From contig CAZGEC010000009.1 of the NCBI GenBank assembly GCA_964524645.1, positions 7,403 through 71,402 on the forward strand: a stretch of 64,000 nucleotides of DNA. The letters run 5' to 3'. Shown piece by piece: positions 7,748 through 46,013 of this stretch. Source of the DNA: an uncultured Fibrobacteraceae bacterium. GTDB taxonomy: Bacteria; Krumholzibacteriota; Krumholzibacteriia; LZORAL124-64-63. Position 1 is the stretch's first letter. Each line of letters starts with the position of its first letter. Both the position numbers and the translations under genes were made by a program. A model generated the notes under the pieces. It was given only the letters and a program-made list of their open reading frames with translations, was not told the DNA's origin and did no database searches.

Positions 7748-9247
7748 ATGAGTCTCTTCAGGCGCATTGATGGTGAGACCTGGGCGGAATACGGGCGGCG
7801 GCGCTTCACGATCCTGGCCCGGATCTTCTGGGCCAACGGGATGACCTCGGCTGGATCCATCATCATCGTGGTGACCCTGATCCTCCTGCTGGCGTTCATG
7901 TTCATCCACATCTACGACGTGGTGCTGAGGCGGCCGACTCATCCTTACGTCGGCCTGATCAGCTTCATGGTGCTGCCCGCCCTGATCGCCCTCGGGGCGG
8001 CGCTGGTCGGCGGCGGCCTGCTGCTCCGCCGGTGGCGGCGAAGGCGTGGCGTGCCGGAGCGCGAGCCGCTGCCCCTGGAAGGGGATCGGCTGCTGCGCCG
8101 CGGCGCGGTGATCGGCCTGCTGACGACCGTCTTCCTCGTTCTCTTCGGGACCTTCAGCTACGAGGCGTACCATTACACCGATTCCGTGGGCTTCTGCCTC
8201 AAGATCTGCCACCGGGTGATGCGCCCCGAGGGGGTGGCCTACTCGCGCTCGCCCCACGCCCACGTGGCCTGCGTCGACTGCCACATCGGTCCCGGTGCCT
8301 CCTGGTTCGTCCGCTCCAAGCTGTCGGGGCTGCGCCAGGTGTACGCCGTGCTCACCAACACCTACGATCGTCCCATCCCCGTACCGGTGCAGGACCTGCG
8401 ACCGGCCCGGGAAACCTGCGAGGTCTGTCACTGGCCCGCCAAGTTCCAGGGGGCCAGTCTCCGCATGACCCGGAACTACGAGAGCGACCGCGCGAACACG
8501 CCCACCGTCACGGCCCTGGTGCTGAAGGTCGGCGGCCTGCCGCGACCAGGAGCGCCGGCCACGGGCATCCACTGGCACGTGGACCCGCACAACGAGGTGA
8601 GGTACCTGGCCACCGATCGCGCGCGGCAGGACATCGTGGAGGTCATCCGTGACACTCCCGCCGGCGAGATCCGCTTCGTGCGCGAGGGGGCGGGGGCGGA
8701 CACGACCAAGGGGGAATGGCGCGTCATGGACTGCATCGACTGCCACAACCGCCCCACCCACATCTTCGACAGGCCCGGCGAGGCCGTGGACGCCGCGCTG
8801 GCCGACGGCCTGCTCGACCCGTCGCTGCCCTGGTTGCGCAAGGAAGGTGTGGCCGCTCTGCACGCCGTCACTCCCGGCGGCGCGACGGCTGACAGCGTGC
8901 TGGCCTGGCTCGTGTCCAGCTATCGCCAGGAGCACCCGGACGATCTTCCCGCCGTGCAGGATTCCCTGTCGAGAGCAGCCCAGGTGCTGGCCCGGATCCT
9001 CGAGGACAACGTCTTCCCGCACATGCGGATCACCTGGAACACCTACACCAGCAACATCTGGCACTTCGACGCCGACGGCGACCTGAGCAGCGGCGCCTGC
9101 TTCCGCTGCCACGACGAGGAGCACGTCAGCGCGCAGGGCGAGACCATCAGCCAGGACTGCGATCTCTGCCACACCCTGCTGGCCGATCACGAGGCGGACT
9201 GGACCGGGCTCAAGGGAATCCGGGAGGATTACCTGCGGCATCCCTAG
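7748..9247 (+). CDS. Membrane-anchored multiheme cytochrome c (NapC/NirT- or ImcH-like quinol dehydrogenase candidate)
   Basis: Two N-terminal TM helices (SIIIVVTLILLLAFMFIHIY; LISFMVLPALIALGAALVGGGLLL) followed by CVDCH, CEVCH, CIDCH, CFRCH, CDLCH plus one CxxxCH (CLKICH). AGGAGG RBS upstream. Confidence 0.75.
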   Translation: MSLFRRIDGETWAEYGRRRFTILARIFWANGMTSAGSIIIVVTLILLLAFMFIHIYDVVLRRPTHPYVGLISFMVLPALIALGAALVGGGLLLRRWRRRRGVPEREPLPLEGDRLLRRGAVIGLLTTVFLVLFGTFSYEAYHYTDSVGFCLKICHRVMRPEGVAYSRSPHAHVACVDCHIGPGASWFVRSKLSGLRQVYAVLTNTYDRPIPVPVQDLRPARETCEVCHWPAKFQGASLRMTRNYESDRANTPTVTALVLKVGGLPRPGAPATGIHWHVDPHNEVRYLATDRARQDIVEVIRDTPAGEIRFVREGAGADTTKGEWRVMDCIDCHNRPTHIFDRPGEAVDAALADGLLDPSLPWLRKEGVAALHAVTPGGATADSVLAWLVSSYRQEHPDDLPAVQDSLSRAAQVLARILEDNVFPHMRITWNTYTSNIWHFDADGDLSSGACFRCHDEEHVSAQGETISQDCDLCHTLLADHEADWTGLKGIREDYLRHP

Positions 9248-9348: not shown

Positions 9349-11253
9349 CTACTTGAGCAGCAGCGTGGCCCGGGCCAGCTGCTTCGGCGCCAGCGACAGC
9401 GTGCTCTGCTGCAGGAGCTGTATCGCGTAGAGCGCGTTGTGCACCCCGCGGCTCCCGTCGTACTCCACGAAGAAGTAGTTGTAAGCCGCCTTGCGCTGCG
9501 CGAGGGTCGAGATCGTGATGTCGCCAATCGCGGTCCCGAAGTTGGCCACCAGGGCCGCCCGGTGCGCGGGGCTGTCGCTGGCATCCAGGATGGCGTCATA
9601 CAGGATCGTCAGAAGCCCCTCGACCTCCAGCTGCACGCCCTGGATGACCCCGTTGCCGTCGTAGTCCTCGGTGGCGCCAACCTCCGAGAAGCTCGTCACG
9701 GGTCCGTGGCATTGCGTGCAGGCGTCGAGCCTCGGCTCGAAGCCGTGGCCGGTGTAGACCGGATCGTCCTCCTCGGCCTGCATGTGGCAGGTGACGCAGG
9801 CGTTCTCGATCGTGACGTGGCTGGTGGAGGCGAACGGGAAGCCGGGGGCGACGTCCTCGTAGGCTCCCGTCCCGACCAGCATGTCCGCCTGATCGGAGTG
9901 GTGCGGGCCGAAGTGCTCGTCACCTTCGGTCAGCTGATCCTGGATGTCGGCCGGGCCCCGGCGTCCGTTGTGGCAGGCCATACAGAGTCGGCCCTCCCCA
10001 CCCAGCGACACGACGGTCCCATCCGGCAGGTGCGCGTCCGTGGAGGCGGCGGCGCGCAGCTCGACGTGATTGTCGGTGCCGTGCATGTTGTGACAGATCG
10101 CGCAGGCGAGGGCCGTGACGGAGTCGACGCTGGCCGGGTTCGCGAAGGCAGTGGGATCATTCAGGTAATGGTAGGCGTAGGTGCCGTTGTGGCATTTCTG
10201 GCAGAACGTGAGCCCCAAGGGATCCGTCAGCTCCGTGGAATGGCCATGGGCCGACTCCTGCCACTCCGAGTAGGTCGGATGATGCGGCCCGTTGTGGCAG
10301 ATGCCGCAGAGGGAGGCGTCGATGGTGACCGGCAAGAACGGCATGCCGTTGGATGGGTGCTCGCTGCCGGGACCGTGGCAGTTCTCGCACTGAACACCCC
10401 AGAGAGCCATGATTGGGATGTCGTCGAAGCCGCCGTTGTTGAGGGCCGGGTTGGCGTCGAGACCCTCGCTGCCCACCGTGTGGCAGATCAGGCAGTCGTT
10501 GTTGTTGCCCTGGCCGATGGCCTGCAGGGTCTGCACGGCTTGAGCATGGCTCGTGTTTTCCCAGGTGTCGTAGATGTCCAGGTGGCAGCCGCTGCAGTAG
10601 GCGACTCCCTTGTAGGACGGCTCGTCGGTCGGCGTGTAGGGCAGCACCGTTATCCCGATGCTGGCGGACCGCGTGTCGCCCGCGGCGTTCACCACCACGA
10701 CCTGGACGGTCGCACCGCCGAAGGGCACCGTGTCCGGGGCCTTCCAGACCACCGTGTCGGGTGTCACCTGCGTGAGCGTGCCCGCCGAGGCGGTCCAAGA
10801 ATAGACCAGTCCGCTGCCCACGGAGACGGCCGCGATGGTGCTCTTGTGCGCGATCACCAGCGTGTCCGCGCTGGCCGTCAGCTGCAGGCCGATCTCGACG
10901 CCGATGGCGATGGAGGCCGAGGCCGTCAGGTTGCCGCTCCCGCGGACGGTCACCGTGAGGAGATACACGCCGGGCTGGTCCGGCGCCGTCCAGACGGTCG
11001 AGCTGGCGGAAGCATCCTGGAAGCTGCCAGCGTCGGCGGTCCAGAGATACACCAGGTTCTCGCCGGCGGCGTTCACCGAGATGTTGACCGTTCCGCCCTG
11101 GGCGACGATCTCCTGCGAGGCCGTGATCTCGGAGACGAGAGGCTGGGAGCCGCCCGGCCCGCTGACTTCGTCGTCGTCGTCGTCACATGCCGCGATGGGC
11201 AACACGAGAGCCAGCAGACCCAGCATCAGGAGAGCGAGTTTCCACCTGTGCAT
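9349..11253 (-). CDS. Multiheme (about 9 CxxCH) c-type cytochrome lipoprotein with N-terminal Ig-like/PKD-like repeats (outer-surface cytochrome candidate)
   Basis: Lipoprotein signal MHRWKLALLMLGLLALVLPIAAC followed by an acidic DDDDDE stretch. Two Ig-like repeats (VYLWTADAGSF.. and VYSWTASAGTL..). Motifs CSGCH, CLICH, CENCH, CGICH, CQKCH, CAICH, CMACH, CVTCH, CTQCH. Confidence 0.8.
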   Translation of the reverse strand: MHRWKLALLMLGLLALVLPIAACDDDDDEVSGPGGSQPLVSEITASQEIVAQGGTVNISVNAAGENLVYLWTADAGSFQDASASSTVWTAPDQPGVYLLTVTVRGSGNLTASASIAIGVEIGLQLTASADTLVIAHKSTIAAVSVGSGLVYSWTASAGTLTQVTPDTVVWKAPDTVPFGGATVQVVVVNAAGDTRSASIGITVLPYTPTDEPSYKGVAYCSGCHLDIYDTWENTSHAQAVQTLQAIGQGNNNDCLICHTVGSEGLDANPALNNGGFDDIPIMALWGVQCENCHGPGSEHPSNGMPFLPVTIDASLCGICHNGPHHPTYSEWQESAHGHSTELTDPLGLTFCQKCHNGTYAYHYLNDPTAFANPASVDSVTALACAICHNMHGTDNHVELRAAASTDAHLPDGTVVSLGGEGRLCMACHNGRRGPADIQDQLTEGDEHFGPHHSDQADMLVGTGAYEDVAPGFPFASTSHVTIENACVTCHMQAEEDDPVYTGHGFEPRLDACTQCHGPVTSFSEVGATEDYDGNGVIQGVQLEVEGLLTILYDAILDASDSPAHRAALVANFGTAIGDITISTLAQRKAAYNYFFVEYDGSRGVHNALYAIQLLQQSTLSLAPKQLARATLLLK

Positions 11254-11581
11254 GATACTACCTGCCTGTTCGAGGAAGGAGTCTGGCAGTCGACCCAGGA
11301 AGAGCCCGTTTTCAAATTACCAAGTGCAATACTATGATATTTAGGGGAGCCATGTTCAAGCGAAATCTGCACAGTTAAGAAAACCATAATCAATTGCAAT
11401 TTCTTGTTCTCCAACCAGTTCCCGCAACATTGCCTTGACGGTGGCTTGGAGACCTGCTGTAATTCCCACTAATTGAATATGATCTGTCCCCGCCCCTGAA
11501 ACGACTTTTTCAGACAGCGGTGACACGATAACCTGGATTTGTGCTAGTGTCCAGCGAGATCAGCTGGTTGCGCGGGATGGG
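11254..11581. promoter_or_regulatory. AT-rich divergent promoter region between two cytochrome genes
   Basis: A 328-bp intergenic stretch of markedly low GC in a ~70% GC genome (e.g. ttcaaattaccaagtgcaatactatgatatttagg and cactaattgaatatgatctg), flanked by divergent gene starts. Confidence 0.4.
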
Positions 11582-12766
11582 ATGGTGAGTCCGGGCCAGA
11601 GACCGGAAAGGATGGGTGTCATGATGCGGCTGTCGACCTTCGTGAAATACGGGGCCACTTGCCTGGTGGCAACCCTGCTGCTCGCTGGTTGCGAGAGCGA
11701 TCTCGAGCCCCTGAACCTGCCCAGCGAACTGACGGTGCAGGAGACCTTCGTGGGAGCCGCCAAGTGCAGCGCCTGCCACCCGGGGAAGTACGCCGAGTTC
11801 CTGGAGAGCGGCCACGCCCACATCCTCAACCGCGTCGTGGGCGGGCAGCTGCCCGCCTATCCCTTCCGCGACGAAGTGCCCTTCCCGCTCCTGGCGGCGC
11901 CCGGCGGCAGCTCCGACGATGTGCTCTACGTCGTCGGCGGCTTCGGCTGGAAGGCGAATTTCGTGGGAACGGACGGCTACCTGATCACGGGCGACGCGAC
12001 GCAGTGGGACCTGGAGACGGGGGAGTACGTGGCCTATCATCCCGGCGAGCAGCTGCCCTACGACTGCGGCGCCTGTCACACCACCGGATACTCGCCCACG
12101 GGCCACCAGCTCGGCCTGACGGGGCTGGTGGGGACCTGGACCGAGGACGGAGTCAACTGCGAGGCTTGCCATGGACCGGGCTCCCTGCACGTGCTCAGCC
12201 AGAGCGGGGAGGACATTAACCTGGATCGCAGCAACGCTCTCTGCGCCCGCTGCCACTCGCGGGGCGTGCCGAATCACATCGTCGCTTATCCACCGGACAG
12301 CGAGGGCGACCAGTTCCTCGCGAACTACGGGCAGTTCGACGAGCTGCAGGCCAGTCCGCATCGCAACCTGACCTGTGTGTCCTGCCATGATCCCCATCTT
12401 TCCGCGAAGTTCAGTCCGGAGCAGGCCATCGAGATCTCCTGCACGACCTGCCACGAGGAGATCGAGATCTTCAACACCGGCGGCGGGGCTCACACCTGCG
12501 TGAACTGTCACCTGCCCTTCGCCACCCTGTCGGCGGTGAAGCGTTCGCCGTACCAGGCCGACGTCCGGACCCACATCTTCCGCATCAATCCCTCCGCCGC
12601 TGCCGAGATGTTCTACCAGGAGAACGGAAACTGGTACTCCCATGATTTCCTGACCACCAACTTCACCTGCCTCCGCTGTCACGCTTCCCAGGACCGGCAG
12701 TGGGCGGAGGAACATGCGGACGAGATCCACTCGGGCGAGAAGCGACCGTTCCTCGCGGGGAGGTGA
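11582..12766 (+). CDS. Octaheme c-type cytochrome lipoprotein
   Basis: Lipobox LLLAGCESD. Motifs CSACH, CGACH, CEACH, CARCH, CVSCH, CTTCH, CVNCH, CLRCH. Start may be an internal Met (MMRLSTF..). Confidence 0.8.
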   Translation: MVSPGQRPERMGVMMRLSTFVKYGATCLVATLLLAGCESDLEPLNLPSELTVQETFVGAAKCSACHPGKYAEFLESGHAHILNRVVGGQLPAYPFRDEVPFPLLAAPGGSSDDVLYVVGGFGWKANFVGTDGYLITGDATQWDLETGEYVAYHPGEQLPYDCGACHTTGYSPTGHQLGLTGLVGTWTEDGVNCEACHGPGSLHVLSQSGEDINLDRSNALCARCHSRGVPNHIVAYPPDSEGDQFLANYGQFDELQASPHRNLTCVSCHDPHLSAKFSPEQAIEISCTTCHEEIEIFNTGGGAHTCVNCHLPFATLSAVKRSPYQADVRTHIFRINPSAAAEMFYQENGNWYSHDFLTTNFTCLRCHASQDRQWAEEHADEIHSGEKRPFLAGR

Positions 12767-12769
12767 GCC

Positions 12770-13699
12770 ATGCCCCGGGCTACCACTCCCCAGCGGACCG
12801 CCATGGTCCTCGGCCTGGGCTTGCTGATCGGGTCGGCGCTGAGCGTCTTGGCCGCAGGCTGGACGCCGTACACGTCTCGCCTGACCCCCCCGGCGGGCGC
12901 GAAGCCGGTGGGGACCGAGACGTGCGAGATGTGTCACGACGATGTGGCCGCCTTCTTCGCCGGCACCGCGCACGAGACGGCGATCGTTCCCGGCACCACG
13001 GTGGGGCTCTGCGAGGCCTGCCACGGTCCCGGCAGCCTGCACGTGGATGCCGAGGGTGACGGCCCCATCTTTGGTCCCTCGGTTCTGGGCCAGCTCGTCC
13101 CCGACGAGCGGGCGGCCATGTGCCTGCAGTGCCATCGCGCCCTGGAGGGAGCCTGGTACAACGGTCCTCACGCCGGCACGGATGCCGACTGCGCCGCCTG
13201 CCACACCGACCGTGCCCATTTCGCCCATGGCGCGCAGTCGCCGGGCGCCTTCCGCCGCGGGGCCGACTTCTGCCTGCAGTGCCATCCCGAGAACGCGGCG
13301 GATTTCCGCCTGCAGTACCGGCATCCCGTTCTCACCGGTCAGATGGAGTGCACGGACTGTCACTCTCCCCACGGCACTTCCGATGACCGGGCGGCGTTTG
13401 CCGAAGATGGTCTCGTCTGCCTGCGCTGCCACGCGGAGATGGCGGGTCCGTTCGTCTTCGAGCACGAGCCCACGGCGGACGGGTCCTGCACTGCCTGTCA
13501 CCGGCCCCATGGGTCCCCCAACGACCGGCTGCTCACCCAGGACAGCAACAGTCTCTGCCTGAACTGCCACTACGAGCCGGCCTTTCCCGTGCTTGGAGGC
13601 GTGGATCACGCGGACTTCCTGGCCCAGCGGGCCCGCTGCTACGACTGCCACGCCGAGATCCACGGATCCAACCTGGACCCGAACCTACTCAAGCCCTAG
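12770..13699 (+). CDS. Periplasmic decaheme c-type cytochrome (MtrA/PioA-like)
   Basis: Signal peptide, then 10 CxxCH in 309 aa (CEMCH, CEACH, CLQCH, CAACH, CLQCH, CTDCH, CLRCH, CTACH, CLNCH, CYDCH). RBS gggaggtg upstream. Starts 4 nt after the preceding stop. Confidence 0.8.
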   Translation: MPRATTPQRTAMVLGLGLLIGSALSVLAAGWTPYTSRLTPPAGAKPVGTETCEMCHDDVAAFFAGTAHETAIVPGTTVGLCEACHGPGSLHVDAEGDGPIFGPSVLGQLVPDERAAMCLQCHRALEGAWYNGPHAGTDADCAACHTDRAHFAHGAQSPGAFRRGADFCLQCHPENAADFRLQYRHPVLTGQMECTDCHSPHGTSDDRAAFAEDGLVCLRCHAEMAGPFVFEHEPTADGSCTACHRPHGSPNDRLLTQDSNSLCLNCHYEPAFPVLGGVDHADFLAQRARCYDCHAEIHGSNLDPNLLKP

Positions 13700-13708
13700 G
13701 AGGTCGGC

Positions 13709-15724
13709 ATGGGCAGCTGCAAGGGGATGGGCAAGATGCTGGCAGCGAGGGTCCTCGTGGTCGCGGTGATCCTGCCCGTTGCGGGCGGCGCGCTCGCTGC
13801 CGAGTCGTCCTCCGGTGAGCTTGTTTACGGCACGCCCATCTACCCGTTCTGGTCGGCGCCCGGGGACAGCGTCGGCGTGGCGTCACGCTTGACCTGCGGG
13901 GCCGGACTGCTGGACGACCACGGCCGGGTGGATCGGCTGGCCGAGGACGAGGGGCTGGTGGACAAGGCCTGGGGCCGCCTGCTCTGGGACCGCCGCAACC
14001 TCGTCGGAAAGACCGATCACCTGGTCACCCACGGACAGTTCCGCAGCGACGACGAGATGTCCGGATGGGCCGACGTCCGCTTCAGCCGGACGGGGAAGGC
14101 CGAGTATCGCCTGCGCTACACCCGCCTGCTGGAATACGACGATCGCACCGCCGAGGATCCCTTCCTGCCGGCGGGTGTGGTCGGGGTGATACCGGGCCAC
14201 CCGCTCTTGCGCTGGGATCGCGTGGACTTCGCCTACCGGCGCGAGCTTCGCCCCGGCTGGAATCTGGAGGCCGGCTACGGCTACCTGGCCAAGGACGGCC
14301 GGCGGGCCGGGCTCTCCCGAGGCATTGTGGGGGCCGACCTGCTCTTCGGCCTGCCGGACGCCCTTGAGCGCGCCACCTGGACGCAGCGCGCCTACCTGGC
14401 CGGCGACGTCCTGTCGGGAGGGCTGACCGTGGACTGGCGCCTGAATCTCCAGGCGGACGGCGGCCGCCAGGTCCGGCACAGCACGTCGGCCCTGCCGGCC
14501 ACGCCGGAAGTGATCAGCGAGAGCCGGCGCGCCGCGGAGAACCGGACCTGGAGCCTCAACCTCGGTTCCACCTACACGGCCGGTCCGCGCTGGCTGCTCT
14601 TCGGGAGCTACGATTACCGGCAGCATCGCGCCGAACCGGAGGAGAGCCGCGGTCTGGCCGGCGGCCCGCAGCCGGGCAGCCGCCTCGTGGCGAACGACCT
14701 GGAGGCGGACGCGCGCATCCACACCGGCCTGTTCGGCGTCCTGTATCATCCGCGGCCCTGGTTGCGCGTGCGGCTGGCGGCGCGGCTGCAGAATCTGGAT
14801 CAGGTGAGCCTCGCGACCGCCGGCCGCCTCGACGAGCTGCTGGCCCGCGAGCACGGCAGCCTGGACCGCGAGCGCTTCCGCCAGGCTTACAGCCTGGATC
14901 TGAGCCACAGCGGTTTCCGGAACTCCCGTTACGGGCTGAACTACCGCTACGAGCGGAGCGACGAGCAGACCCACCTGCTGGAACTGGACGAGTACCTGGG
15001 CGGAAACGTCATCCTGCGCGCGCAGCAGAGCGACCGGGATCAGACGGTGCACGATCTGAAGCTCACGGGTCGCCGCCGGCTAGCGCGCGGGTTGTCCCTT
15101 CTGGCGAACCTGGGCTACCGGGCGGAGGACATCGATCAATCCAACGAGATCCGCGGCGGGCTCTACGCCCAGGGGAACCGGAGCTGGGGACGGTGGCGGG
15201 GCGAGATCAAGCTGCGCACGCGTCCGGTGCCGGAGTTCCACTGCGACGCGGGCTACCTCCTGCTGCGCGAGACCTTCGAGCGGGACGATCTGGAGGGCGC
15301 GCGGACGAGCTGGGACGCCGATCGCCTGTTCGCCACGGCGGCCTTCCTGCCCGATCCACGCCTCGCTCTCTACCTGAGCTTCAGCATCGGCTGGGAGGAC
15401 TACGACATCGAGGGAACGCTGCCGGCCGCGGCGAACGATCCGCTCGTCTACAACCCGGTGGAGTACGGGACACGCACCTACCGGCTGGCGCCGGCGGCCG
15501 TGCTGCAGCTGACCAGGAGCCTGTCGCTCGAGGGCGGGTACGAGCGCGTGCGCAACCGGGACTCCGTGGCCAATGATGGGGATCGCTGGCACGCCCGGCT
15601 GAATCAGCGGCTGGCCGAGAGCTGGACGTTGAGCGCCGGCTACCGCCGCTACGACTTCAGCAACCCTTACCGCGACGACTACGCGGCCGATCTGTACACG
15701 CTCTCCGTGACCACGGCGCCCTGA
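13709..15724 (+). CDS. Putative outer-membrane beta-barrel protein (MtrB/PioB-like porin candidate of a porin-cytochrome complex)
   Basis: Signal peptide MGKMLAARVLVVAVILPVAGGALAAE. 671 aa, heme-free, Cys-poor, with alternating hydrophobic/polar strand-like segments rich in Y/R/D/G. Sits immediately downstream of the decaheme gene with an AGGAGG RBS. Lacks the canonical C-terminal aromatic residue, so the assignment is tentative. Confidence 0.45.
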   Translation: MGSCKGMGKMLAARVLVVAVILPVAGGALAAESSSGELVYGTPIYPFWSAPGDSVGVASRLTCGAGLLDDHGRVDRLAEDEGLVDKAWGRLLWDRRNLVGKTDHLVTHGQFRSDDEMSGWADVRFSRTGKAEYRLRYTRLLEYDDRTAEDPFLPAGVVGVIPGHPLLRWDRVDFAYRRELRPGWNLEAGYGYLAKDGRRAGLSRGIVGADLLFGLPDALERATWTQRAYLAGDVLSGGLTVDWRLNLQADGGRQVRHSTSALPATPEVISESRRAAENRTWSLNLGSTYTAGPRWLLFGSYDYRQHRAEPEESRGLAGGPQPGSRLVANDLEADARIHTGLFGVLYHPRPWLRVRLAARLQNLDQVSLATAGRLDELLAREHGSLDRERFRQAYSLDLSHSGFRNSRYGLNYRYERSDEQTHLLELDEYLGGNVILRAQQSDRDQTVHDLKLTGRRRLARGLSLLANLGYRAEDIDQSNEIRGGLYAQGNRSWGRWRGEIKLRTRPVPEFHCDAGYLLLRETFERDDLEGARTSWDADRLFATAAFLPDPRLALYLSFSIGWEDYDIEGTLPAAANDPLVYNPVEYGTRTYRLAPAAVLQLTRSLSLEGGYERVRNRDSVANDGDRWHARLNQRLAESWTLSAGYRRYDFSNPYRDDYAADLYTLSVTTAP

Positions 15725-16010
15725 CCGGCCCGGGCCCGAAGCGGTGCGAGAATGGGGAGCCTGCAAGGTTCCCATACCGAAAGGGATGCAGCGCCCGCTC
15801 TGCCAGGAATTCCTTCAATGGCTTTCATTTAGGTCGAAGTCGGGCTTGCTTCCGTGGCTCGCCTGTTGCGCTTTTTAGCGACTGATTGATGGTCCGCGAG
15901 CCCGTCTTGCCTCCCTGGGGGCACAACAAATGAGACTTGCGGGGCAGCAGCGGCCCACGTCATCGGTGCGGGGACGGGGCGGAGCCGGTGCCCGGGAAGG
16001 GACCAGGAGC

Positions 16011-17906
16011 ATGCACCTCTGCTGGCGGATCCTGCTCTGCATGCTGCTGCTGGGACTCGGGGCCGAACAGGCCGCCGGGGAGAGCTTCACCGGCGAGGAC
16101 TGTGCCGCTTGCCATACGGGCTCCGGCGGTGACCCGCCGGAGGTGACGGCGGCCGACCTGGCGGGCGGTGTGCACGAGGGGCTGGACTGCACCGATTGCC
16201 ACGCCGGGATCGAGGAACTGCCGCACGCGGAGGCGCTGCCCGCCGCCGACTGCGGATCCTGCCATGCGGAGGTGGAGGAGACCTACCGGCAGCACGGGCG
16301 CGGCAAGGTGGGCGTTTCCCCCTTCGTGCCGGGCTGCGCCGATTGCCATGGCACCCACCGGATCCTGGCCATCCTGGACCGGGATTCCCCGGTGCATCCT
16401 CTCAACCTGCCGGGGACCTGCGGCCGCTGCCACGAGGACCAGACGTTCACCGAGCAGCTGAGCATCAAGTTCAAGCACCCCATCCGCGTCTACGAGCAGA
16501 GCGTGCACGGCCGCGCCACGGCCGGCGGCATCCACACGGCGGCTACCTGCAACGACTGCCACTCCACCGGCGGCTCGGCCCACATGATCCTGCCGCCCGG
16601 CGACTCCCGCTCCACCATCAACCACTTCAACATCCCCTACACCTGCGGCCAGTGCCACAACGGCATCGAACAGGACTACTGGGAAGGGATCCATGGCGAG
16701 CTGACTGCGCGCGGCGAGGTGGACTCGCCCACCTGCACGCACTGCCACGGGGAGCACGGCATCCTGCCCACGGCGGATCCACGCTCCCCGGTCAGTCCCT
16801 ACCGCCTGGCCGAAGCGACCTGCGCACCCTGTCACGAATCGGCGGCCCTCAACGAGAAGTACGACCTGCCCACCGGCCGGCTGCAGTCCTTCGTGGATTC
16901 CTACCACGGGCTGAAGAGCAAGGCCGGGGACAAGACCGTGGCCAACTGCGCTTCCTGCCATGGCGCCCACCGCATCCTGCCGGCGGCGGACCCGACCTCG
17001 TCCATCAATCCGCGGAACCTCCCGATCACCTGCGGCGCCTGCCATCCCGGCATCTCGCCCGACATCGCGCGGACGCCCATCCACGCTACCGCCACCGGCC
17101 TGCGCACGGGCTGGCCGCACTTCTTCCGGCTGCTCTACATCTGCCTGATCGTGGTGGTCATCGGCGGCATGGTGCTGCACTGGCTCATCGATCTCTTCCG
17201 GCAGATCCGCAACGTCCTGCAGGAGCGGCCCCAGGTACGTCGCATGGAGGCGGACGAGGTGATCCAGCACACGCTGCTGGCGGTCGCCTTCACGGTTCTG
17301 GTGATCACCGGCTTCTCGCTGCGTTTCCACGACGCCTGGTGGACCAACCTGCTCTTCGGCCGGGAGGGCGGCTACGCGGTCCGCGGCATCATCCACCGGG
17401 TCGCGGGGGTCCTGCTGCTCCTGGGAGGGCTATGGCACCTGCTGTTCCTTTTCACCGAGCGCGGGCGCGGCTTCGTGCGCGACATGCGGCCGCAGGCGGG
17501 GGACGTGCGACAGTTCTTCCAGATGATCCGCTACAACCTGGGGCGCACCGACGAGCAGCCGCAGATGGGCCGCTTCTCCTACGTGGAGAAGGCGGAGTAC
17601 TGGGCCCTGGTCTGGGGCACCGTGGTCATGGGGATCACCGGTCTCTTCCTGTGGTTCGAGAACCTCGCGGTCCGTCTCTTTCCCAAGGGTCTGCTGGACG
17701 TCTTCCTGGTCATCCACTACTACGAGGCCTGGCTCGCCTTCCTGGCGATTCTCATCTGGCACATGTACGCCACGGTCTTCAGCCCGCGCGTCTACCCCAT
17801 GAACCCCTCCTGGCTGACCGGCCGGATGCCGCGCCGCATGTACGAGGAGGAGCATCCGGGAGCCCTGCCGGAAGCGGCGCCGAGCAGGGAGCCGGACCCC
17901 GAATAG
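16011..17906 (+). CDS. CbcL-like protein: N-terminal multiheme (about 11 CxxCH) cytochrome c fused to a C-terminal diheme cytochrome b-like (HydC/FdnI-like) membrane domain
   Basis: Signal peptide MHLCWRILLCMLLLGLGAEQAAG. Motifs CAACH, CTDCH, CGSCH, CADCH, CGRCH, CNDCH, CGQCH, CTHCH, CAPCH, CASCH, CGACH. Then 4-5 TM helices with conserved His (HWLIDLF.., HTLLAVAF.., HRVAGVLLLLGGLWH.., VIHYYEAW..). ATG 16011 is in frame with track ORF 15930..17906. Confidence 0.8.
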   Translation: MHLCWRILLCMLLLGLGAEQAAGESFTGEDCAACHTGSGGDPPEVTAADLAGGVHEGLDCTDCHAGIEELPHAEALPAADCGSCHAEVEETYRQHGRGKVGVSPFVPGCADCHGTHRILAILDRDSPVHPLNLPGTCGRCHEDQTFTEQLSIKFKHPIRVYEQSVHGRATAGGIHTAATCNDCHSTGGSAHMILPPGDSRSTINHFNIPYTCGQCHNGIEQDYWEGIHGELTARGEVDSPTCTHCHGEHGILPTADPRSPVSPYRLAEATCAPCHESAALNEKYDLPTGRLQSFVDSYHGLKSKAGDKTVANCASCHGAHRILPAADPTSSINPRNLPITCGACHPGISPDIARTPIHATATGLRTGWPHFFRLLYICLIVVVIGGMVLHWLIDLFRQIRNVLQERPQVRRMEADEVIQHTLLAVAFTVLVITGFSLRFHDAWWTNLLFGREGGYAVRGIIHRVAGVLLLLGGLWHLLFLFTERGRGFVRDMRPQAGDVRQFFQMIRYNLGRTDEQPQMGRFSYVEKAEYWALVWGTVVMGITGLFLWFENLAVRLFPKGLLDVFLVIHYYEAWLAFLAILIWHMYATVFSPRVYPMNPSWLTGRMPRRMYEEEHPGALPEAAPSREPDPE

Positions 17907-18074: not shown

Positions 18075-21000
18075 ATGGATGTGATGGCGGTCATCGAACA
18101 GCTGCTCTACGGCTATCATGCGGAGTCGGGCCAGCCGGGTCGCACGCTGCTGGCACGCTCCCCCGGCGTGTCACAGGAGTGTGCCGCGGAGATCATCCGC
18201 TACTGCGAGGCCTGGGGCGGCATCCCCGTGGGTCACAGCTTCCGGCCCGCCCTGCTCTCGTTCCCGCTCCAGGGCGGCATACCTTCGCTGCCGGGTCGGC
18301 TCTTTGCGGTGATCCGCATCGCCGCCGCCAGCGAGGACGGGCGGGGAGCCGAGAAGCTGTCCGTCGGCCAGCTTCTGGAACTCGAATCTGCCGGCGTTCC
18401 GTCGGACGACTCGCCCGTGGTGGCGCCGATTCCTCTCTTCCACGCGGTGGTCCTCAGCGAGAGCGATTTCGCCGCCTTCGGCGAGAATCCCTACGCGCTG
18501 GCCCTCGAGAACATCTTCCTGGACCGCTGGGCACCCGGCCTCATCCTGGACCGACGCGAGGTGCACCCCGCTTCACTGGCTCCCCTGGTCTCACCGCTGC
18601 CCACCGAGAGCGACGTGGACCTGATCGGGGAGGCCCTGCGCCAGTACTTCGCGAAGGGCAAGCTGATCCTGCCGCTGACGGCGAGCGACGAGCAGAGCGA
18701 TCGCTTCCTGGCGCTGCTCGTGGCGGCGCTGCCGCTGCGCCTGAAGCGGGGGCTGCGCTTCGCCTCCTTCGCCGTGAGCGACGCCAACAGCTACACGCTC
18801 GCTGCCATCTACCGCGAGGGCCAGTCCTTCCGCGGCTGGCAGCGCCTGCTGATGGCCCACCTGCCGGGCACCATGAATCAGGAGGCGGAGCGTTACCTGG
18901 CCGCCGTGAAGCAGACGCTGGCCAGGAGCGACCTGCTCGGGCTGGAGAAGCTGAGCCGCCAGAACCTGGGGGAGATCCGGCTGCAGGCCGAGAAGCCGGC
19001 GGCCTCCTCACCGGGAGTGCTCGCGGCCACCATCACGTCTCGCGCTGCACCGGCGCCCGCGCCCACGCCCTGGGCCGCGGCGACCAGCGTGGCGCGGACC
19101 CCGAACGTCGGGCGGGGCCGGCCCGGCAGCAAGCCGGCCGCCCGGACGGGCTCCCACCGCCGTCCGGCTCGACGCCGCCCGGCCCGCCTGCCTGCAGGGC
19201 GCCGCCCGTCCTTTGCCTTCCTGATCGCCATGGTCCTGGTGCTGCTCCTCGCCGGGGCGGCCTACCTGCTCGGCACCCATGGGGGGAAGTGGTTCGCTGC
19301 ACGGCCGGCCGAGGAGGAGGAGACCGCCGGCGCCTCGCTGCTGGGTGTGATCGACGTCGGGGCTCTCTACGAAGCGGAGCTGAACGGCTTCCTGGATGCC
19401 CAGCTCGGCCAGGGAGGGAAGGCCAGCAGCAAGGGGGCGGCCAAGGCCCTTTCCGCCCTGCGGATCGGCGCCGCGGAGGATCTGGGACAGCAGGCCCGGC
19501 TGTTCGTGGACCTGGCGCACGAGGGGATCCAGCTGCCGGCCCGGCCGGAACGCGAAAAGGAGCGGCTGCAGGCGTTGGCCCAGCGCGGCGCTGTGATCGA
19601 GCACGAGATGCAGCGGCTGCTGCTGGCCTATTATGCCTTCGACAGCGGGATCCTCTGGCGCGATCTCGGTGACCTGGAGGAGCGGCGCCTCCAGGCTCGC
19701 TACGATTCGCTGGCACGTCGCCAGGGGGAGGCGCTGGCCAGGATCAGCCAGGAAATGGCCCTGACGGACGTGATGCCGGCCCTTCACGCGGCCAGCATGG
19801 AGGCTACGGGCATGTCGCAGCTCGTGACCCAGTTCTCGCGCAAGGAACGCGACCGCTCCTGGGTCGAAACGACCGAGAAGGCGGCGCAATCCCTGTCCGG
19901 GCATCGCCTGGCCCCGGGCACCGCGGCCTACCGGACCAGCGCCTTCCTGATGATCCGGTTGAAGCGCGCCGAGGACAGCGCCGGTTTCGGCCGGCTGGCC
20001 TTCGCCCGCGACTACGAGCAGCAGATCTGGCTGCCGGCAACCGTGCGGGAGATCCTGCCCGCCATGCGTAGCCATGCCGCCCGTTTCGGTAAGGAGGGCG
20101 TCCCGCCGCTCTTCACCGCCACGGTGGCCTTTTACGACGACCTGGAGCGCGTGCCCCAGGTGCTGGCGGCCGGATCCTCGGCCGAGATGTACGGCCTGAT
20201 CCGCAAGCTGGCCGACAGCCGGGCGCTGGCCTTCGATCCGGCGACCTACCAGGATCACGTGGATCGGCTGCGCACGGCGGCCGTGGCCGTTCTGCACGGT
20301 CGCGGGACCAATCCGCACGATCTGCCTTCCAACCTCTTCCCGGCCGGCGACCGCGAGACCACCCTGGCCTTCCTGCAGCTGTGTCGCAGCGGCGCCGCTG
20401 CCGAGGAGTGGGGGGAGGTGGCGAACCTGACCAGCGTGCCTTTCTTCGCCCGCTGGGCCGCCGCCGAGGCGCAGGCGGCCCGCCAGGCCCGGGTGCGCCT
20501 GCAGGGGAACTTCGACGAGGTCTACCGGGATCTCGGCCGCGCGGCTTCCAGCCTCGCCGGTCTCGCCGCCGCCGGCCAGGACTGGACGGGTTCCTACTTG
20601 AGCCTCCGCAAGGACGTGATCAGGGCGCTCGCGACCTATCGCACGCAGCTCGCGGGGGACTCCGGGCGCAGCGCGCAGCTGGCCCGACTGGAGGCCCTGG
20701 CGGCCCGTCTGGACAGTCCGCTGCCGCTGGTGCTGAAGGCCGTGACGGTCCGGCTGGGGGCCGGAGCCCTGACGGAGCCGACCCAGGTGATCCTGGAACT
20801 CCTGGCCGAGGACGGCCGCTCCCTCCTCCGCACGCCGGCCTTCGCGGTGGGCCCGTCCGCCCCCGCCGGCACGGGCTGGGTCGGCACCCAGGATCTGGAT
20901 CTCCAGATCCAGGTCCGGGCGGGCGAACGCCTGCGGGCCGTGCTCCAGCGCGCCGACGATCAGTCGGCGCTGCTGGTCACCACCTACGAGGCCGAGGGTG

Positions 21001-21152
21001 AAGCGGCCGTGCCCGGCGCCCTGACCCGCCCCTGCTGCGGCTCCGCCTCCGAGCCCGGCACGGATCCGGCGGAGGTCCCGGGCAGCGTCGCCTTCCGGCT
21101 GGACGAGGCGACCTGGCGCCAGCTGCAGATCCCGCTGCCCATCACCGAGTGA
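18075..21152 (+). CDS. Large hypothetical bitopic membrane protein (1025 aa)
   Basis: About 330-aa N-terminal globular region (MDVMAVIEQLLYGYHAESGQPGRTLLARSPGVSQE..), then a Pro/Ala/Arg-rich low-complexity linker, a single TM helix FAFLIAMVLVLLLAGAAYLLG, and a ~640-aa mostly helical C-terminal region. No recognisable catalytic motif. Confidence 0.55.
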   Translation: MDVMAVIEQLLYGYHAESGQPGRTLLARSPGVSQECAAEIIRYCEAWGGIPVGHSFRPALLSFPLQGGIPSLPGRLFAVIRIAAASEDGRGAEKLSVGQLLELESAGVPSDDSPVVAPIPLFHAVVLSESDFAAFGENPYALALENIFLDRWAPGLILDRREVHPASLAPLVSPLPTESDVDLIGEALRQYFAKGKLILPLTASDEQSDRFLALLVAALPLRLKRGLRFASFAVSDANSYTLAAIYREGQSFRGWQRLLMAHLPGTMNQEAERYLAAVKQTLARSDLLGLEKLSRQNLGEIRLQAEKPAASSPGVLAATITSRAAPAPAPTPWAAATSVARTPNVGRGRPGSKPAARTGSHRRPARRRPARLPAGRRPSFAFLIAMVLVLLLAGAAYLLGTHGGKWFAARPAEEEETAGASLLGVIDVGALYEAELNGFLDAQLGQGGKASSKGAAKALSALRIGAAEDLGQQARLFVDLAHEGIQLPARPEREKERLQALAQRGAVIEHEMQRLLLAYYAFDSGILWRDLGDLEERRLQARYDSLARRQGEALARISQEMALTDVMPALHAASMEATGMSQLVTQFSRKERDRSWVETTEKAAQSLSGHRLAPGTAAYRTSAFLMIRLKRAEDSAGFGRLAFARDYEQQIWLPATVREILPAMRSHAARFGKEGVPPLFTATVAFYDDLERVPQVLAAGSSAEMYGLIRKLADSRALAFDPATYQDHVDRLRTAAVAVLHGRGTNPHDLPSNLFPAGDRETTLAFLQLCRSGAAAEEWGEVANLTSVPFFARWAAAEAQAARQARVRLQGNFDEVYRDLGRAASSLAGLAAAGQDWTGSYLSLRKDVIRALATYRTQLAGDSGRSAQLARLEALAARLDSPLPLVLKAVTVRLGAGALTEPTQVILELLAEDGRSLLRTPAFAVGPSAPAGTGWVGTQDLDLQIQVRAGERLRAVLQRADDQSALLVTTYEAEGEAAVPGALTRPCCGSASEPGTDPAEVPGSVAFRLDEATWRQLQIPLPITE

Positions 21153-21289
21153 GCCACCGCCCGAAAGCAGCGGGGAGTCCGGCGGCAGCCGAACTCCCCG
21201 CTGCGCTTCCCTCTGCAACTCTTCCCGCGCGCGTGCGTAGATCCCGGCAGGCCGACCCGATCGCGACCGCATCAGGAGGAAGAACCGTG

Positions 21290-45039: not shown

Positions 45040-45142
45040 CTTTTCGGCCTTCCCCCGGGAGCCCGCCGGCGCTAACGTCGTCGGCGGGCTCCCGCCCGCC
45101 GGATCTCCTCGCTCACGGGAGGCCGTCCTGCTCTACCTGATC

Positions 45143-46012: not shown

Positions 46013-46013
46013 C

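What the first reader, a model, noticed from the sequence alone, without database searches (positions are those of the whole stretch)
12770..15724. MtrA/MtrB-like (PioA/PioB-like) porin-cytochrome pair
A 309-aa secreted protein with 10 CxxCH motifs is followed 9 nt later, with its own RBS, by a 671-aa signal-peptide-bearing, Cys-poor, heme-free protein of MtrB/PioB size. This gene order is diagnostic of porin-cytochrome modules. The putative barrel lacks the N-terminal CxxC of MtrB and lacks a C-terminal aromatic residue, so it may be a new barrel family.
Basis: inference. Interest (0 to 1): 0.7.

Follow-up and report, generated by a model that had tools for sequence, protein, structure and literature searches.

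The report
Divergent MtrAB-like outer-membrane electron conduit
A ten-haem cytochrome gene followed by a gene for a 26-strand outer-membrane barrel is a distant, so far unannotated relative of the Shewanella MtrAB "insulated wire". It sits in a 10-kb haem-protein cluster of an uncultured, probably Krumholzibacteria-like bacterium, so the kind of system is well known and only this branch and its surface partners are new.

Summary
12770..13699 encodes a secreted 309-aa protein with 10 CxxCH. It passes the NCBIfam DmsE/MtrA decahaem cut-off and matches crystallised MtrA (E 1.4e-36). Nine nt later, 13709..15724 encodes a haem-free, signal-peptide-bearing 671-aa protein.

This second protein hits no curated MtrB/PioB model. 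It belongs to a small family: 51 cluster representatives among 1.84 billion proteins.
- Some family members do reach Pfam MtrB_PioB.
- The family profile aligns with crystallised MtrB over 548 columns (hhalign 94.8%, E 5e-8). A TonB-receptor control scored 0.3%.
- The AlphaFold model (pLDDT 85) is a plug-less 26-strand barrel. Its best PDB match is MtrB (Foldseek E 6e-17).

The decahaem gene directly precedes the barrel gene at every related place where upstream sequence is held. So this is a divergent MtrB branch, not a new barrel family. MtrB's CxxC is replaced by a conserved WxxxGD motif.

The surrounding genes complete a pathway:
- an 8-haem lipoprotein and a PKD 9-haem lipoprotein, both OcwA-like rather than MtrC-like;
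- a CbcL/MtoC-type protein;
- a protein with ImcH-like layout.

The most likely function is trans-outer-membrane electron transfer, probably outward. The direction is inferred, not shown. This is a moderately interesting new variant of a known kind.

The parts
7748..9247 (+). Inner-membrane multihaem protein (499 aa): three N-terminal hydrophobic helices, a NapC/NirT/NrfH-like region, 5 CxxCH plus one CxxxCH (CLKICH). The layout resembles ImcH. Candidate quinol oxidase.
   Evidence: Pfam Cytochrom_NNT 1.7e-7. NCBIfam NrfH 6.5e-14, below its cut-off. Motif count. Three hydrophobic segments at 35-53, 68-86 and 115-133. ImcH layout as described in PMC6295460. Direct homology to ImcH was not tested.
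9349..11253 (-). 634-aa lipoprotein (lipobox ...PIAAC) with a PKD domain and 9 CxxCH. Candidate cell-surface cytochrome, transcribed divergently from the operon.
   Evidence: Pfam PKD, Cytochrome_C7, C554 and MtrC/MtrF II-IV domains. 9 CxxCH. Best PDB sequence match is OcwA, 6i5b_A, E 3.7e-10. Conserved at 54-55% identity in the same position and orientation in L008/L012 and L010.
11254..11581 (.). AT-rich divergent intergenic region between the PKD-cytochrome gene and the three-gene operon. Presumed regulatory or promoter region.
   Evidence: Sequence. GC falls to 0.60 in the 11000-11999 bin against 0.67-0.71 around it. Sigma-70-like consensus matches at 11309-11338(+) and 11553-11525(-), which are only consensus matches.
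11582..12766 (+). Up to 394-aa lipoprotein (lipobox LLLAGC; the real start is probably at Met11-15) with 8 CxxCH. Candidate extracellular partner, occupying the position of mtrC.
   Evidence: 8 CxxCH and N-terminus. Pfam MtrC/MtrF II-IV domain 7.3e-11 over residues 286-377 only, plus C7 and C554. Best PDB match is OcwA, 6i5b_A, E 4.2e-13 over residues 54-241. Conserved directly upstream of the decahaem gene in L008/L012, L009 (two tandem copies) and L010. The stop lies 3 nt before 12770.
12770..13699 (+). MtrA/DmsE-family decahaem c-type cytochrome (309 aa, Sec signal peptide).
   Evidence: TIGR03508 196.3 bits against a cut-off of 192.2, aligned 48-303 to profile 1-257 of 258. PDB 6r2q_A (MtrA) E 1.4e-36, aligned 44-302 to 59-325. 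10 CxxCH and 21 His.
13700..13708 (+). 9-nt spacer. The GGAGG ribosome-binding site overlaps the TAG stop of the decahaem gene, which suggests translational coupling.
   Evidence: Sequence ...aagccctaggaggtcggcatg.
13709..15724 (+). Haem-free 671-aa outer-membrane protein. Signal peptide, a disordered N-terminus carrying a conserved WxxxGD motif (WSAPGD, residues 48-53), then a plug-less 26-strand beta-barrel (residues 60-669). Divergent MtrB-like sheath.
15930..17906 (+). CbcL/MtrH/MtoC-type inner-membrane protein (658 aa): 11 CxxCH in the N-terminal half fused to a HydC/FdnI-type b-cytochrome membrane domain. Candidate quinol oxidase or quinone reductase.
   Evidence: Pfam Ni_hydr_CYTB 1.3e-15 over 445-620, plus multihaem domains. 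NCBIfam formate-DH gamma 6.6e-18. PDB 1kqf_C E 6.2e-7. 11 CxxCH. Five C-terminal hydrophobic segments. Family layout and its linkage to mtrAB/mtoAB are described in PMC6295460. A 33%-identical homologue lies in the cluster of L005.

Best explanation
12770..13699 and 13709..15724 encode the core of an MtrAB-type trans-outer-membrane electron conduit.

How it most likely works:
- The decahaem cytochrome is exported by Sec and matured in the periplasm.
- It is threaded into the lumen of a 26-strand, plug-less beta-barrel. The barrel insulates its haem chain and holds it across the outer membrane.
- The 8-haem lipoprotein encoded 3 nt upstream, and probably the divergently transcribed PKD 9-haem lipoprotein, sit on the cell surface. 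They exchange electrons with the last haem of the embedded cytochrome.
- The flanking protein with ImcH-like layout and the CbcL/MtoC-type protein connect the quinone pool to the periplasm.

The most likely direction is outward, that is respiration of insoluble Fe(III)/Mn(IV) or other extracellular acceptors.

Shown here: homology of the cytochrome to MtrA, remote homology and fold match of the barrel to MtrB, conserved gene order, and the domain make-up of the neighbours.

Inferred: physical insertion of the cytochrome into the barrel, surface location of the lipoproteins, quinol oxidase roles, and direction of electron flow.

The confidence of 0.8 is for the conduit itself. Outward direction alone I put at about 0.55-0.6.
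For: Cytochrome:
- TIGR03508 above its cut-off.
- E 1.4e-36 to MtrA of the crystallised MtrCAB complex, aligned nearly end to end with the non-motif His positions matching.
- 21 His for 10 haems.

Barrel:
- Confident model of 26 strands and no plug, with short first strands and a small helix between strands 1 and 2. The MtrB crystal structure has the same features: 26 strands, first four shorter, helix in the loop between strands 1 and 2 (PMC7198977).
- The family profile aligns with MtrB at 94.8%, E 5e-8, over residues 38-659. The same profile scored 0.3% against the window's own TonB receptor.
- 12 of 38 family members hit Pfam MtrB_PioB in register, and 20 of 38 hit the GSU2204 family, which a review describes as an MtrB/PioB-family barrel.
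- A distant member is named MtrB/PioB family by NCBI.

Linkage:
- The decahaem gene directly precedes the barrel gene in L003, L004, L005/L006, L008/L012, L009, L010 and L011.
- The four-gene layout (PKD cytochrome, 8-haem lipoprotein, decahaem, barrel) is conserved in L008/L012 and L010.
- Spacers of 3 nt and 9 nt with an overlapping ribosome-binding site.

Pathway context:
- CbcL/MtoC-type genes are known to cluster with mtrAB/mtoAB (PMC6295460).
- The surface-candidate cytochromes have lipoboxes and match OcwA, a cell-surface terminal reductase (PMC6703420).
Against: - No experiment and no complex prediction was possible, so insertion of the cytochrome into the barrel is inferred from homology and synteny only.
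- The window's barrel itself reaches no curated MtrB/PioB model.
- A family-profile search of PDB sequences with HMMER found nothing.
- The barrel lacks the CxxC whose first Cys is needed for Fe(III) reduction in S. oneidensis (Wee et al. 2014, as cited in PMC12175506).
- It also lacks the usual C-terminal aromatic residue.
- Direction of flow cannot be read from sequence. CbcL/MtoC relatives occur in both reducers and oxidisers.
- The taxonomic assignment rests on relatives that are only 35-42% identical.
Confidence: 0.8

Rival explanations
1. Same machine, opposite direction. It would be an MtoAB/PioAB-like conduit that takes electrons from extracellular Fe(II), minerals, cathodes or partner cells into the periplasm, with the CbcL/MtoC-type protein reducing quinone or passing electrons to oxidases.
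For: - The barrel family lacks the CxxC motif entirely (0 of 38). That motif was described as a signature of metal-reducing Gammaproteobacteria (title of Wee et al. 2014, cited).
- CbcL/MtrH/MtoC homologues occur in Fe(II) oxidisers as well as reducers, with no distinguishing feature found (PMC6295460).
- Krumholzibacteria MAGs were enriched in an O2-limited iron-fed reactor, carry cyc2 and oxidases, and were proposed as possible Fe(II) oxidisers (PMC7914226).
Against: - From my own knowledge, not tested here: MtoAB and PioAB modules have no dedicated surface cytochrome.
- Here two lipoprotein multihaem cytochromes related to the surface terminal reductase OcwA are conserved with the module.
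- An ImcH-like protein together with a CbcL-like protein is the Geobacter reducer arrangement.
- Mtr-type conduits are reversible in principle, so this is a difference of physiology, not of mechanism.
Confidence: 0.25
2. A DmsEF-like arrangement. The MtrAB-type core would feed an extracellular catalytic reductase that acts on soluble substrates such as nitrite, hydroxylamine or sulfur or nitrogen oxyanions, rather than a mineral reductase.
For: - The best NCBIfam model is the DmsE family.
- The N-terminal halves of both lipoprotein cytochromes match OcwA and cytochrome c554.
- OcwA belongs to the NrfA/octahaem enzyme lineage and reduces nitrite and hydroxylamine in vitro (PMC6703420).
Against: - OcwA's nitrite turnover is very slow (about 1 per min), and it is regarded as a terminal reductase for solids and electrodes.
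- No molybdoenzyme of the DmsAB type lies in the window's cluster.
- I did not identify a catalytic (non-bis-His) haem site in the 8-haem protein.
Confidence: 0.1
3. The 671-aa protein founds a new barrel family unrelated to MtrB that became associated with a decahaem cytochrome independently. A weaker form: it is a generic porin that merely neighbours the cytochrome gene.
For: - No hit to PF11854 or TIGR03509 for this protein.
- Only 3 word-sharing homologues in 5.8 billion proteins.
- No PDB hit by phmmer or by HMMER profile.
- Close relatives are annotated 'hypothetical protein'.
Against: - Full-length, in-register hhalign match to MtrB (94.8%, E 5e-8, 548 columns), with a negative control at 0.3%.
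- In-register sub-threshold to threshold Pfam MtrB_PioB hits in 12 of 38 members.
- Same strand number and same N-terminal peculiarities as crystallised MtrB.
- MtrB is the top structural hit by two methods.
- The cytochrome gene is invariably adjacent at identities down to 21-27%.
Confidence: 0.05

Closest known systems
MtrCAB of Shewanella (crystal structure 6R2Q, S. baltica OS185; PMC7198977)
   Same: - Gene order: surface lipoprotein cytochrome, periplasmic decahaem, barrel.
- The decahaem is a clear MtrA homologue (E 1.4e-36).
- The barrel is predicted with 26 strands, short N-terminal strands, a small helix in the loop between strands 1 and 2, and no plug.
- MtrB is the best structural match and a significant profile match.
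   Different: - About 11% identity to MtrB in the structural alignments, with no hit to curated MtrB/PioB models.
- WSCKGC of MtrB is replaced by W-x-x-x-G-D (WSAPGD).
- The C-terminus ends in Pro, not an aromatic residue.
- The upstream lipoprotein has 8 haems, not 10. It matches OcwA/c554-type modules and only part of an MtrC domain II/IV, so it is not an MtrC/OmcA-family protein.
- A second, PKD-domain 9-haem lipoprotein is present.
- The host is an uncultured FCB-type lineage. A 2022 survey found MtrCAB only in Proteobacteria, Acidobacteria and Gemmatimonadetes (PMC8805035).
OmcK (GSU2203) / GSU2204 pair of Geobacter sulfurreducens (NCBIfam NF041028 / NF041027)
   Same: - The window's decahaem scores 186.6 bits on the GSU2203 model over nearly its full length.
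- 20 of 38 barrel-family members hit the GSU2204 model (best 2.3e-11), more than hit MtrB/PioB models.
- A review describes GSU2204 as an MtrB/PioB-family barrel (PMC13188914).
- Both Geobacter genes are induced with iron-oxide minerals (PMC4070692).
   Different: - Scores lie far below both curated cut-offs (186.6 against 325; 16.6 against 350).
- The GSU2204 family is defined as CXXCH-containing, often with selenocysteine. The window's barrel and all 38 family members have no CxxC at all.
- The Geobacter pair is itself uncharacterised.
MtoAB / PioAB Fe(II)-oxidation conduits
   Same: A decahaem MtrA homologue plus an MtrB/PioB-superfamily barrel. Association with a CbcL/MtoC-type inner-membrane protein.
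   Different: - From my own knowledge, not tested here: those modules have no dedicated surface cytochrome, and PioB/MtoB barrels are larger (around 800 aa).
- The window has two conserved lipoprotein cytochromes and a 671-aa barrel.
- Not compared directly by sequence here.
Geobacter porin-cytochrome complexes (OmaB-OmbB-OmcB, ExtABCD and others)
   Same: Same logic of a periplasmic cytochrome, a porin and a surface lipoprotein cytochrome. The inner-membrane partners (CbcL, ImcH types) are of the Geobacter kind.
   Different: The periplasmic component here is an MtrA homologue with 10 haems, and the barrel is MtrB-like. From my own knowledge, Pcc porins are smaller and unrelated to MtrB. Not tested here.
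OcwA of Thermincola potens (6I5B), cell-surface terminal reductase of a Gram-positive bacterium
   Same: It is the best solved sequence match of both candidate surface cytochromes (E 4.2e-13 and 3.7e-10).
   Different: - OcwA has 9 haems and is not lipid-anchored to an outer membrane or coupled to a porin.
- The matches cover only part of each window protein.
- The window proteins carry lipoboxes, and one carries a PKD domain.

Membership tests
DmsE/MtrA family decahaem c-type cytochrome (TIGR03508) | Whole-protein score at or above the curated cut-off, full-length alignment | tested here: met
   196.3 bits against a cut-off of 192.2; residues 48-303 on profile 1-257 of 258. The margin is small.
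DmsE/MtrA family decahaem c-type cytochrome (TIGR03508) | Ten CxxCH motifs, enough His for bis-His ligation, Sec signal peptide, about 300-350 aa | tested here: met
   10 CxxCH, 21 His, 309 aa, hydrophobic N-terminus 11-29. Aligned with MtrA 6r2q_A at E 1.4e-36.
DmsE/MtrA family decahaem c-type cytochrome (TIGR03508) | Sits inside its partner barrel across the outer membrane | not testable with these tools
MtrB/PioB family outer-membrane barrel (Pfam PF11854, NCBIfam TIGR03509) | Hit to the curated family model at its gathering or curated score | tested here: not met
   No PF11854 or TIGR03509 hit at E <= 0.01 for the window protein. 12 of 38 relatives hit PF11854 (best 9.6e-10) and 3 of 38 hit TIGR03509. 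Among the ten scanned singly, only P0047 (21% identical to the window protein) passes the cut-off, at 24.1 bits against 23.
MtrB/PioB family outer-membrane barrel (Pfam PF11854, NCBIfam TIGR03509) | Detectable homology to a bona fide MtrB | tested here: met
   hhalign of the 38-sequence profile against S. baltica MtrB: 94.8%, E 5e-8, 548 columns, 39-631 against 38-659. Control against a TonB receptor: 0.3%.
MtrB/PioB family outer-membrane barrel (Pfam PF11854, NCBIfam TIGR03509) | 26-strand antiparallel barrel without a plug domain | tested here: met
MtrB/PioB family outer-membrane barrel (Pfam PF11854, NCBIfam TIGR03509) | Encoded directly downstream of an MtrA-type decahaem gene | tested here: met
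   9-nt spacer in the window. Same order in L003, L004, L005/L006, L008/L012, L009, L010 and L011.
Shewanella-type MtrB (metal-reducing Gammaproteobacteria) | N-terminal CxxC motif | tested here: not met
   No CxxC in the window protein or in any of 38 family members. hhalign places WSAPGD opposite MtrB WSCKGC.
GSU2204 family CXXCH-containing (seleno)protein (NF041027) | Score at the curated cut-off and a CXXCH motif | tested here: not met
   16.6 bits against a cut-off of 350. No CxxCH. 20 of 38 relatives give sub-cut-off hits.
MtrC/OmcA family surface decahaem cytochromes (for 11582..12766) | Ten haems in a four-domain fold (two split barrels, two haem domains); lipoprotein | tested here: not met
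   8 CxxCH in at most 394 aa. The PF22113 match covers only residues 286-377 and half of the profile. The best solved match is OcwA, not MtrC. The lipobox is present.
CbcL/MtrH/MtoC family (for 15930..17906) | N-terminal multihaem c domain (3-23 CxxCH) fused to a C-terminal HydC/FdnI-type b-cytochrome with 4-6 membrane helices | tested here: met
   11 CxxCH in residues 58-372. Ni_hydr_CYTB over 445-620. FdnI 1kqf_C E 6.2e-7. Five hydrophobic segments. Definition from PMC6295460. No direct alignment to CbcL itself was made.
ImcH family (for 7748..9247) | Three N-terminal membrane helices, a NapC/NirT-like segment, 6-10 haem motifs | tested here: inconclusive
   Three hydrophobic segments, a Cytochrom_NNT hit, and 5 CxxCH plus 1 CxxxCH fit the description in PMC6295460. 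No ImcH sequence or model was available for a direct comparison.

The most novel reading that the evidence does not exclude
This would be an old, separate branch of the MtrB/PioB/GSU2204 barrel superfamily that current annotation and iron-gene surveys built on curated MtrB/PioB-type models would miss. It is typical of Krumholzibacteriota-like and other uncultured lineages. An MtrA-type wire would be coupled not to MtrC but to OcwA/c554-type lipoprotein cytochromes. That makes it a hybrid of the 'Gram-negative' conduit and the 'Gram-positive' terminal reductase, giving these poorly known sediment bacteria a complete, self-contained route for mineral respiration or electron uptake. The conserved WxxxGD motif would functionally replace the MtrB CxxC.
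Probability: 0.35. Interest if true: 0.55.

Novelty: new variant of a known kind. Interest (0 to 1): 0.4.

Why it matters
Porin-cytochrome conduits are how outer-membrane-bearing bacteria respire minerals and electrodes or take up electrons. Surveys of who can do this rely on curated MtrB/PioB and MtrC models.

This barrel and its closest relatives (35-86% identical) escape those models and are annotated as hypothetical proteins. The capacity would therefore be missed in Krumholzibacteria-like lineages, which have been linked to iron cycling only through OmcS and Cyc2 hits.

The locus also shows an MtrAB core combined with OcwA-type surface cytochromes. This bears on how modular extracellular electron transfer pathways are.

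It offers a natural MtrB variant without the CxxC motif, whose role in Shewanella is still unresolved.

The gain is incremental. It widens the known sequence space and host range of a well-understood machine, and does not reveal a new principle.

Tried and rejected
- AlphaFold with only the three close sequences gave a meaningless model (pLDDT 26.7). Only the 38-sequence alignment worked.
- The word-indexed homologue search found just three proteins, even when given the 38-sequence profile. The exhaustive HMMER search was needed.
- phmmer and HMMER-profile searches of PDB sequences with the barrel found nothing. The MtrB link appeared only with hhalign and fold comparison.
- The first genome-contig scan with the three-sequence alignment found nothing. 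The 38-sequence alignment had no stretch conserved enough to search with. The 11-sequence alignment worked.
- The exact-protein look-up of the barrel found no contig on record. The decahaem's contigs were only 1.4 kb, so the source sample remains unidentified beyond JGI 3300031692 and SRR9700623.
- The afdb50 fold library was not available.
- No tRNA or rRNA marker lies in the window, so taxonomy rests on relatives' record titles and shared neighbours.
- Recent horizontal transfer: no compositional signal, since the cluster's GC (0.66-0.71) equals that of the flanks. Not pursued further.
- TonB-dependent receptor or LptD-like identity for the barrel: rejected. There is no plug or N-terminal domain, the hhalign control was 0.3%, and Foldseek scores were much weaker.
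- I recalled an S. oneidensis MtrB sequence from memory, used only as a probe to pull the true 6r2q_B sequence out of the PDB tool. The comparison uses the sequence printed by the tool.

Full report
**1. The observation**

The window is 68.5% GC. Real genes stand out by GC3 of about 0.85-0.93.

- 12770..13699(+) has GC3 0.85 and encodes 309 aa. It has exactly ten CxxCH motifs, 20 Cys, 21 His and a Sec-type hydrophobic N-terminus.
- Its TAG stop overlaps a GGAGG. Nine nucleotides later, the ATG at 13709 opens a 671-aa frame with GC3 0.90.
- That product has a signal peptide and no CxxCH or CxxC. It has three Cys, one of them in the signal peptide, and ends in ...SVTTAP.

What it did not mention is that the preceding gene, 11582..12766, ends 3 nt before 12770. 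That gene encodes an eight-haem protein with a lipobox (LLLAGC). The unit is therefore three genes in the order surface-type lipoprotein cytochrome, decahaem, barrel. This is the mtrC-mtrA-mtrB order.

**2. The cytochrome**

- It passes NCBIfam TIGR03508 (DmsE family decahaem) at 196.3 bits against a cut-off of 192.2, over the whole profile.
- It scores 186.6 bits on the Geobacter GSU2203 (OmcK) model, far below that model's cut-off of 325.
- phmmer against PDB sequences gives 6r2q_A at E 1.4e-36, aligned 44-302 to 59-325, with the non-motif histidines in register.
- 6R2Q is the S. baltica MtrCAB crystal structure and chain A is MtrA (PMC7198977). The 'cystathionine beta-synthase' label in the PDB copy is a mislabel.

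Membership in the MtrA/DmsE family is met.

**3. The barrel, by sequence**

The protein hits no curated MtrB/PioB model. It gives only faint Porin_4, YaiO and GSU2204 matches and has no PDB sequence match.

The word-indexed search of 5.8 billion proteins returned only itself and two relatives at 86% and 77% identity, both named 'hypothetical protein'. An exhaustive HMMER search of 1.84 billion cluster representatives, using a profile of these three, found 51 representatives with E <= 1e-3. Of these, 25 were at or below 1e-30, and most are 610-700 aa long. The family is small but real.

Scanning 38 members one by one gave:
- 12 hit Pfam MtrB_PioB (best 9.6e-10), 15 hit OMP_b-brl and 9 hit Porin_4.
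- The MtrB_PioB hits are in register with the profile.
- 20 hit the NCBIfam GSU2204 family (best 2.3e-11) and 3 hit TIGR03509 MtrB/PioB.
- NCBI names the distant member P0047 (Ca. Tectomicrobia) 'MtrB/PioB family', while the closer P0011 (Ca. Krumholzibacteriia) is 'hypothetical protein'.

I obtained the true 6r2q_B sequence from the PDB tool and ran hhalign of the 38-sequence profile against it. The result was 94.8% probability, E 5e-8, 548 aligned columns, with family positions 39-631 against MtrB 38-659. The same profile against the window's own TonB-dependent receptor gave 0.3% over 46 columns.

The alignment puts the family's conserved W-x-x-x-G-D (WSAPGD in the window) opposite MtrB's W-S-C-K-G-C. 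None of the 38 members has a CxxC, and 29 have the WxxxGD motif.

**4. The barrel, by structure**

With three sequences AlphaFold failed (pLDDT 26.7). With 38 sequences it gave pLDDT 84.9 and pTM 0.79. The features of that model are:
- A signal peptide and a disordered stretch up to about residue 57, then 26 beta-strands from 60 to 669. Two of these are interrupted by two-residue breaks that I count as bulges.
- The first five strands are short (10-13 residues). The later strands are 13-26 residues, longest in the middle of the barrel.
- A small helix (74-81) lies between strands 1 and 2.
- There is no plug or extra domain.

The MtrB crystal structure is described in the same terms. It has 26 antiparallel strands, the first four shorter than the rest, and a small helix in the loop between strands 1 and 2 that caps a solvent channel (PMC7198977).

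A 26-strand barrel with no domain of its own to fill it needs an occupant. The adjacent decahaem is the obvious one.

**5. Conserved linkage**

- The genome scan found relatives in two 'Candidatus Krumholzibacteriia' MAGs and two MAGs titled 'uncultured Fibrobacteraceae'.
- tblastn of the window's proteins against all fetched loci, together with the gene tables, shows an MtrA-like gene immediately upstream of the barrel gene at every place where upstream sequence is held. These are L003, L004, L005/L006, L008/L012, L009, L010 and L011. Barrel identity there falls as low as 21-27%.
- The wider layout is kept in L008/L012 and L010: the PKD 9-haem lipoprotein on the opposite strand, then the 8-haem lipoprotein, the decahaem and the barrel.
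- L009 has two tandem copies of the 8-haem gene.
- L005 (Ca. Tectomicrobia) also carries a CbcL-like gene (33% identity) and NapC-like cytochromes in its cluster.
- In L008 the cluster is flanked by M1 and S9 peptidases and PEPCK. The same genes occur 24-32 kb downstream in the window.

This shared neighbourhood supports a Krumholzibacteria-like origin of the window. That assignment is inferred, not proven.

**6. The rest of the cluster**

- 15930..17906 encodes 11 CxxCH fused to a HydC/FdnI-type b-cytochrome domain. This is the CbcL/MtrH/MtoC architecture, which is known to cluster with mtrAB/mtoAB in several species (PMC6295460).
- 7748..9247 encodes three membrane helices, a NapC/NirT-like segment and six haem motifs, one of them CX3CH. 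This is an ImcH-like layout, but I could not test homology to ImcH directly.
- The two lipoprotein cytochromes match OcwA (6i5b_A) best among solved proteins, at E 4.2e-13 and 3.7e-10.
- OcwA is the cell-surface terminal reductase of Thermincola. It is structurally unrelated to MtrC, OmcA and UndA and related to NrfA, c554 and octahaem enzymes (PMC6703420).
- The 8-haem protein also has a partial MtrC/MtrF domain II/IV match.

In total about 44 c-type haem motifs lie between 7748 and 17906. The GC content of the cluster equals that of its flanks, so there is no compositional sign of recent transfer.

**7. Mechanism**

The best-supported reading is an MtrAB-type insulated wire. The decahaem is held across the outer membrane inside the 26-strand sheath. 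It receives electrons from the quinone pool through the CbcL-type and ImcH-like proteins, possibly via unidentified periplasmic carriers. It passes them to lipoprotein cytochromes on the surface.

Shown: homologies, predicted fold, synteny and domain content.
Inferred: insertion of the cytochrome into the barrel, surface localisation, and direction.

I favour outward flow at about 0.55-0.6, for two reasons. Dedicated surface cytochromes are conserved with the module, and the inner-membrane pair is of the Geobacter reducer type. However:
- the family lacks the CxxC that marks the metal-reducing gammaproteobacterial MtrB;
- CbcL/MtoC relatives serve both directions;
- Krumholzibacteria have been proposed as Fe(II) oxidisers as well as reducers (PMC7914226).

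**8. Comparison with what is known, and novelty**

The pair works like MtrAB. The cytochrome is a family member. The barrel fails the curated family models but is a remote homologue with the same predicted fold. I therefore file it as a divergent branch of the MtrB/PioB/GSU2204 superfamily. It is neither a member of PF11854 or TIGR03509 in the strict sense nor a new barrel family.

- A 2022 survey found MtrCAB in only three phyla: Proteobacteria, Acidobacteria and Gemmatimonadetes (PMC8805035).
- In the library I searched, Krumholzibacteria had been linked to iron cycling only through OmcS and Cyc2 hits.
- Large homology-independent surveys already report hundreds of unclassified multihaem neighbourhoods with candidate porins (PMC11475568). 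Finding another one is therefore not surprising.

What is new:
- an unannotated barrel clade;
- the WxxxGD-for-CxxC replacement;
- the pairing with OcwA-type instead of MtrC-type surface cytochromes.

Verdict: new variant of a known kind, interest about 0.4.

**9. Unexplained**

- The window's barrel and its two nearest relatives end in Pro or Arg, whereas 33 of 38 members end in Phe. The stop codon follows directly, with no sign of a frameshift.
- The role of the WxxxGD motif is unknown.
- The family is closer to GSU2204 than to MtrB by NCBIfam counts, although it has no haem motif. This deserves a proper phylogeny.

Noticed in passing
window 18075..21152 (+): A 1025-aa ORF with gene-like GC3 (0.89), 168 nt after the CbcL-like gene. 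It has no Pfam or NCBIfam hit and one central hydrophobic helix (381-399). It is not found next to the cluster in any related locus. Function unknown. The 246-aa ORF 21149..21889 that overlaps its end by 4 nt also has no family.
   Followed up: partly
window 58881..59016 (+) and 59063..63338: A cobalamin riboswitch (76.5 bits, E 4.5e-17) lies directly upstream of a TonB-dependent receptor gene (59063..61159). A 474-aa protein with a FlgD_ig-like tail and a cob(I)alamin adenosyltransferase gene (62472..63338) follow. This is an ordinary B12-uptake and salvage operon.
   Followed up: no
window 32510..33625 and 33622..34626 (+): Two tandem glyceraldehyde-3-phosphate dehydrogenase paralogues overlapping by 4 nt.
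   Followed up: no
window 39138..41192, 41359..45039, 61181..62605 (+): An M1 peptidase, a 1226-aa S8 subtilase and a 474-aa protein all end in a FlgD_ig-like domain. This may be a shared C-terminal sorting or secretion tail of the kind common in FCB-group bacteria.
   Followed up: no
window 13709..15724, last codons (15713..15724): The barrel ends in ...TTAP, and its two closest relatives end in TTAP and TTAR. 33 of 38 family members end in Phe. TGA follows directly, so this is not an obvious frameshift.
   Followed up: partly
window 7748..9247, residue 150: The first haem motif of the NapC/NirT-like segment is CLKICH (CX3CH) rather than CxxCH.
   Followed up: no
L009 5238..7394: In this relative, two tandem paralogues of the 8-haem lipoprotein gene (52-55% identical to the window's) precede the decahaem and barrel genes.
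   Followed up: partly
L005 10281..12644 and L006 3699..6062: In the Ca. Tectomicrobia relative, a xanthine-dehydrogenase-type molybdoenzyme gene (Ald_Xan_dh_C, MoCoBD_1/2; 787 aa) follows the barrel gene after 295 nt. This recalls the DmsEF-DmsAB logic. It may be coincidence.
   Followed up: no
L008 1..2417 and 10136..11313, against window 39138..49814: M1 and S9 peptidases and PEPCK flank the cytochrome cluster directly in the Krumholzibacteriia MAG. In the window they lie 24-32 kb downstream. The neighbourhood is shared but has been rearranged or expanded.
   Followed up: partly
PDB entry 6r2q chain A (tool output): The local PDB table names 6r2q_A 'Cystathionine beta-synthase' and 6r2q_B 'Uncharacterized protein'. 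According to the paper, they are MtrA and MtrB of the Mtr complex.
   Followed up: yes
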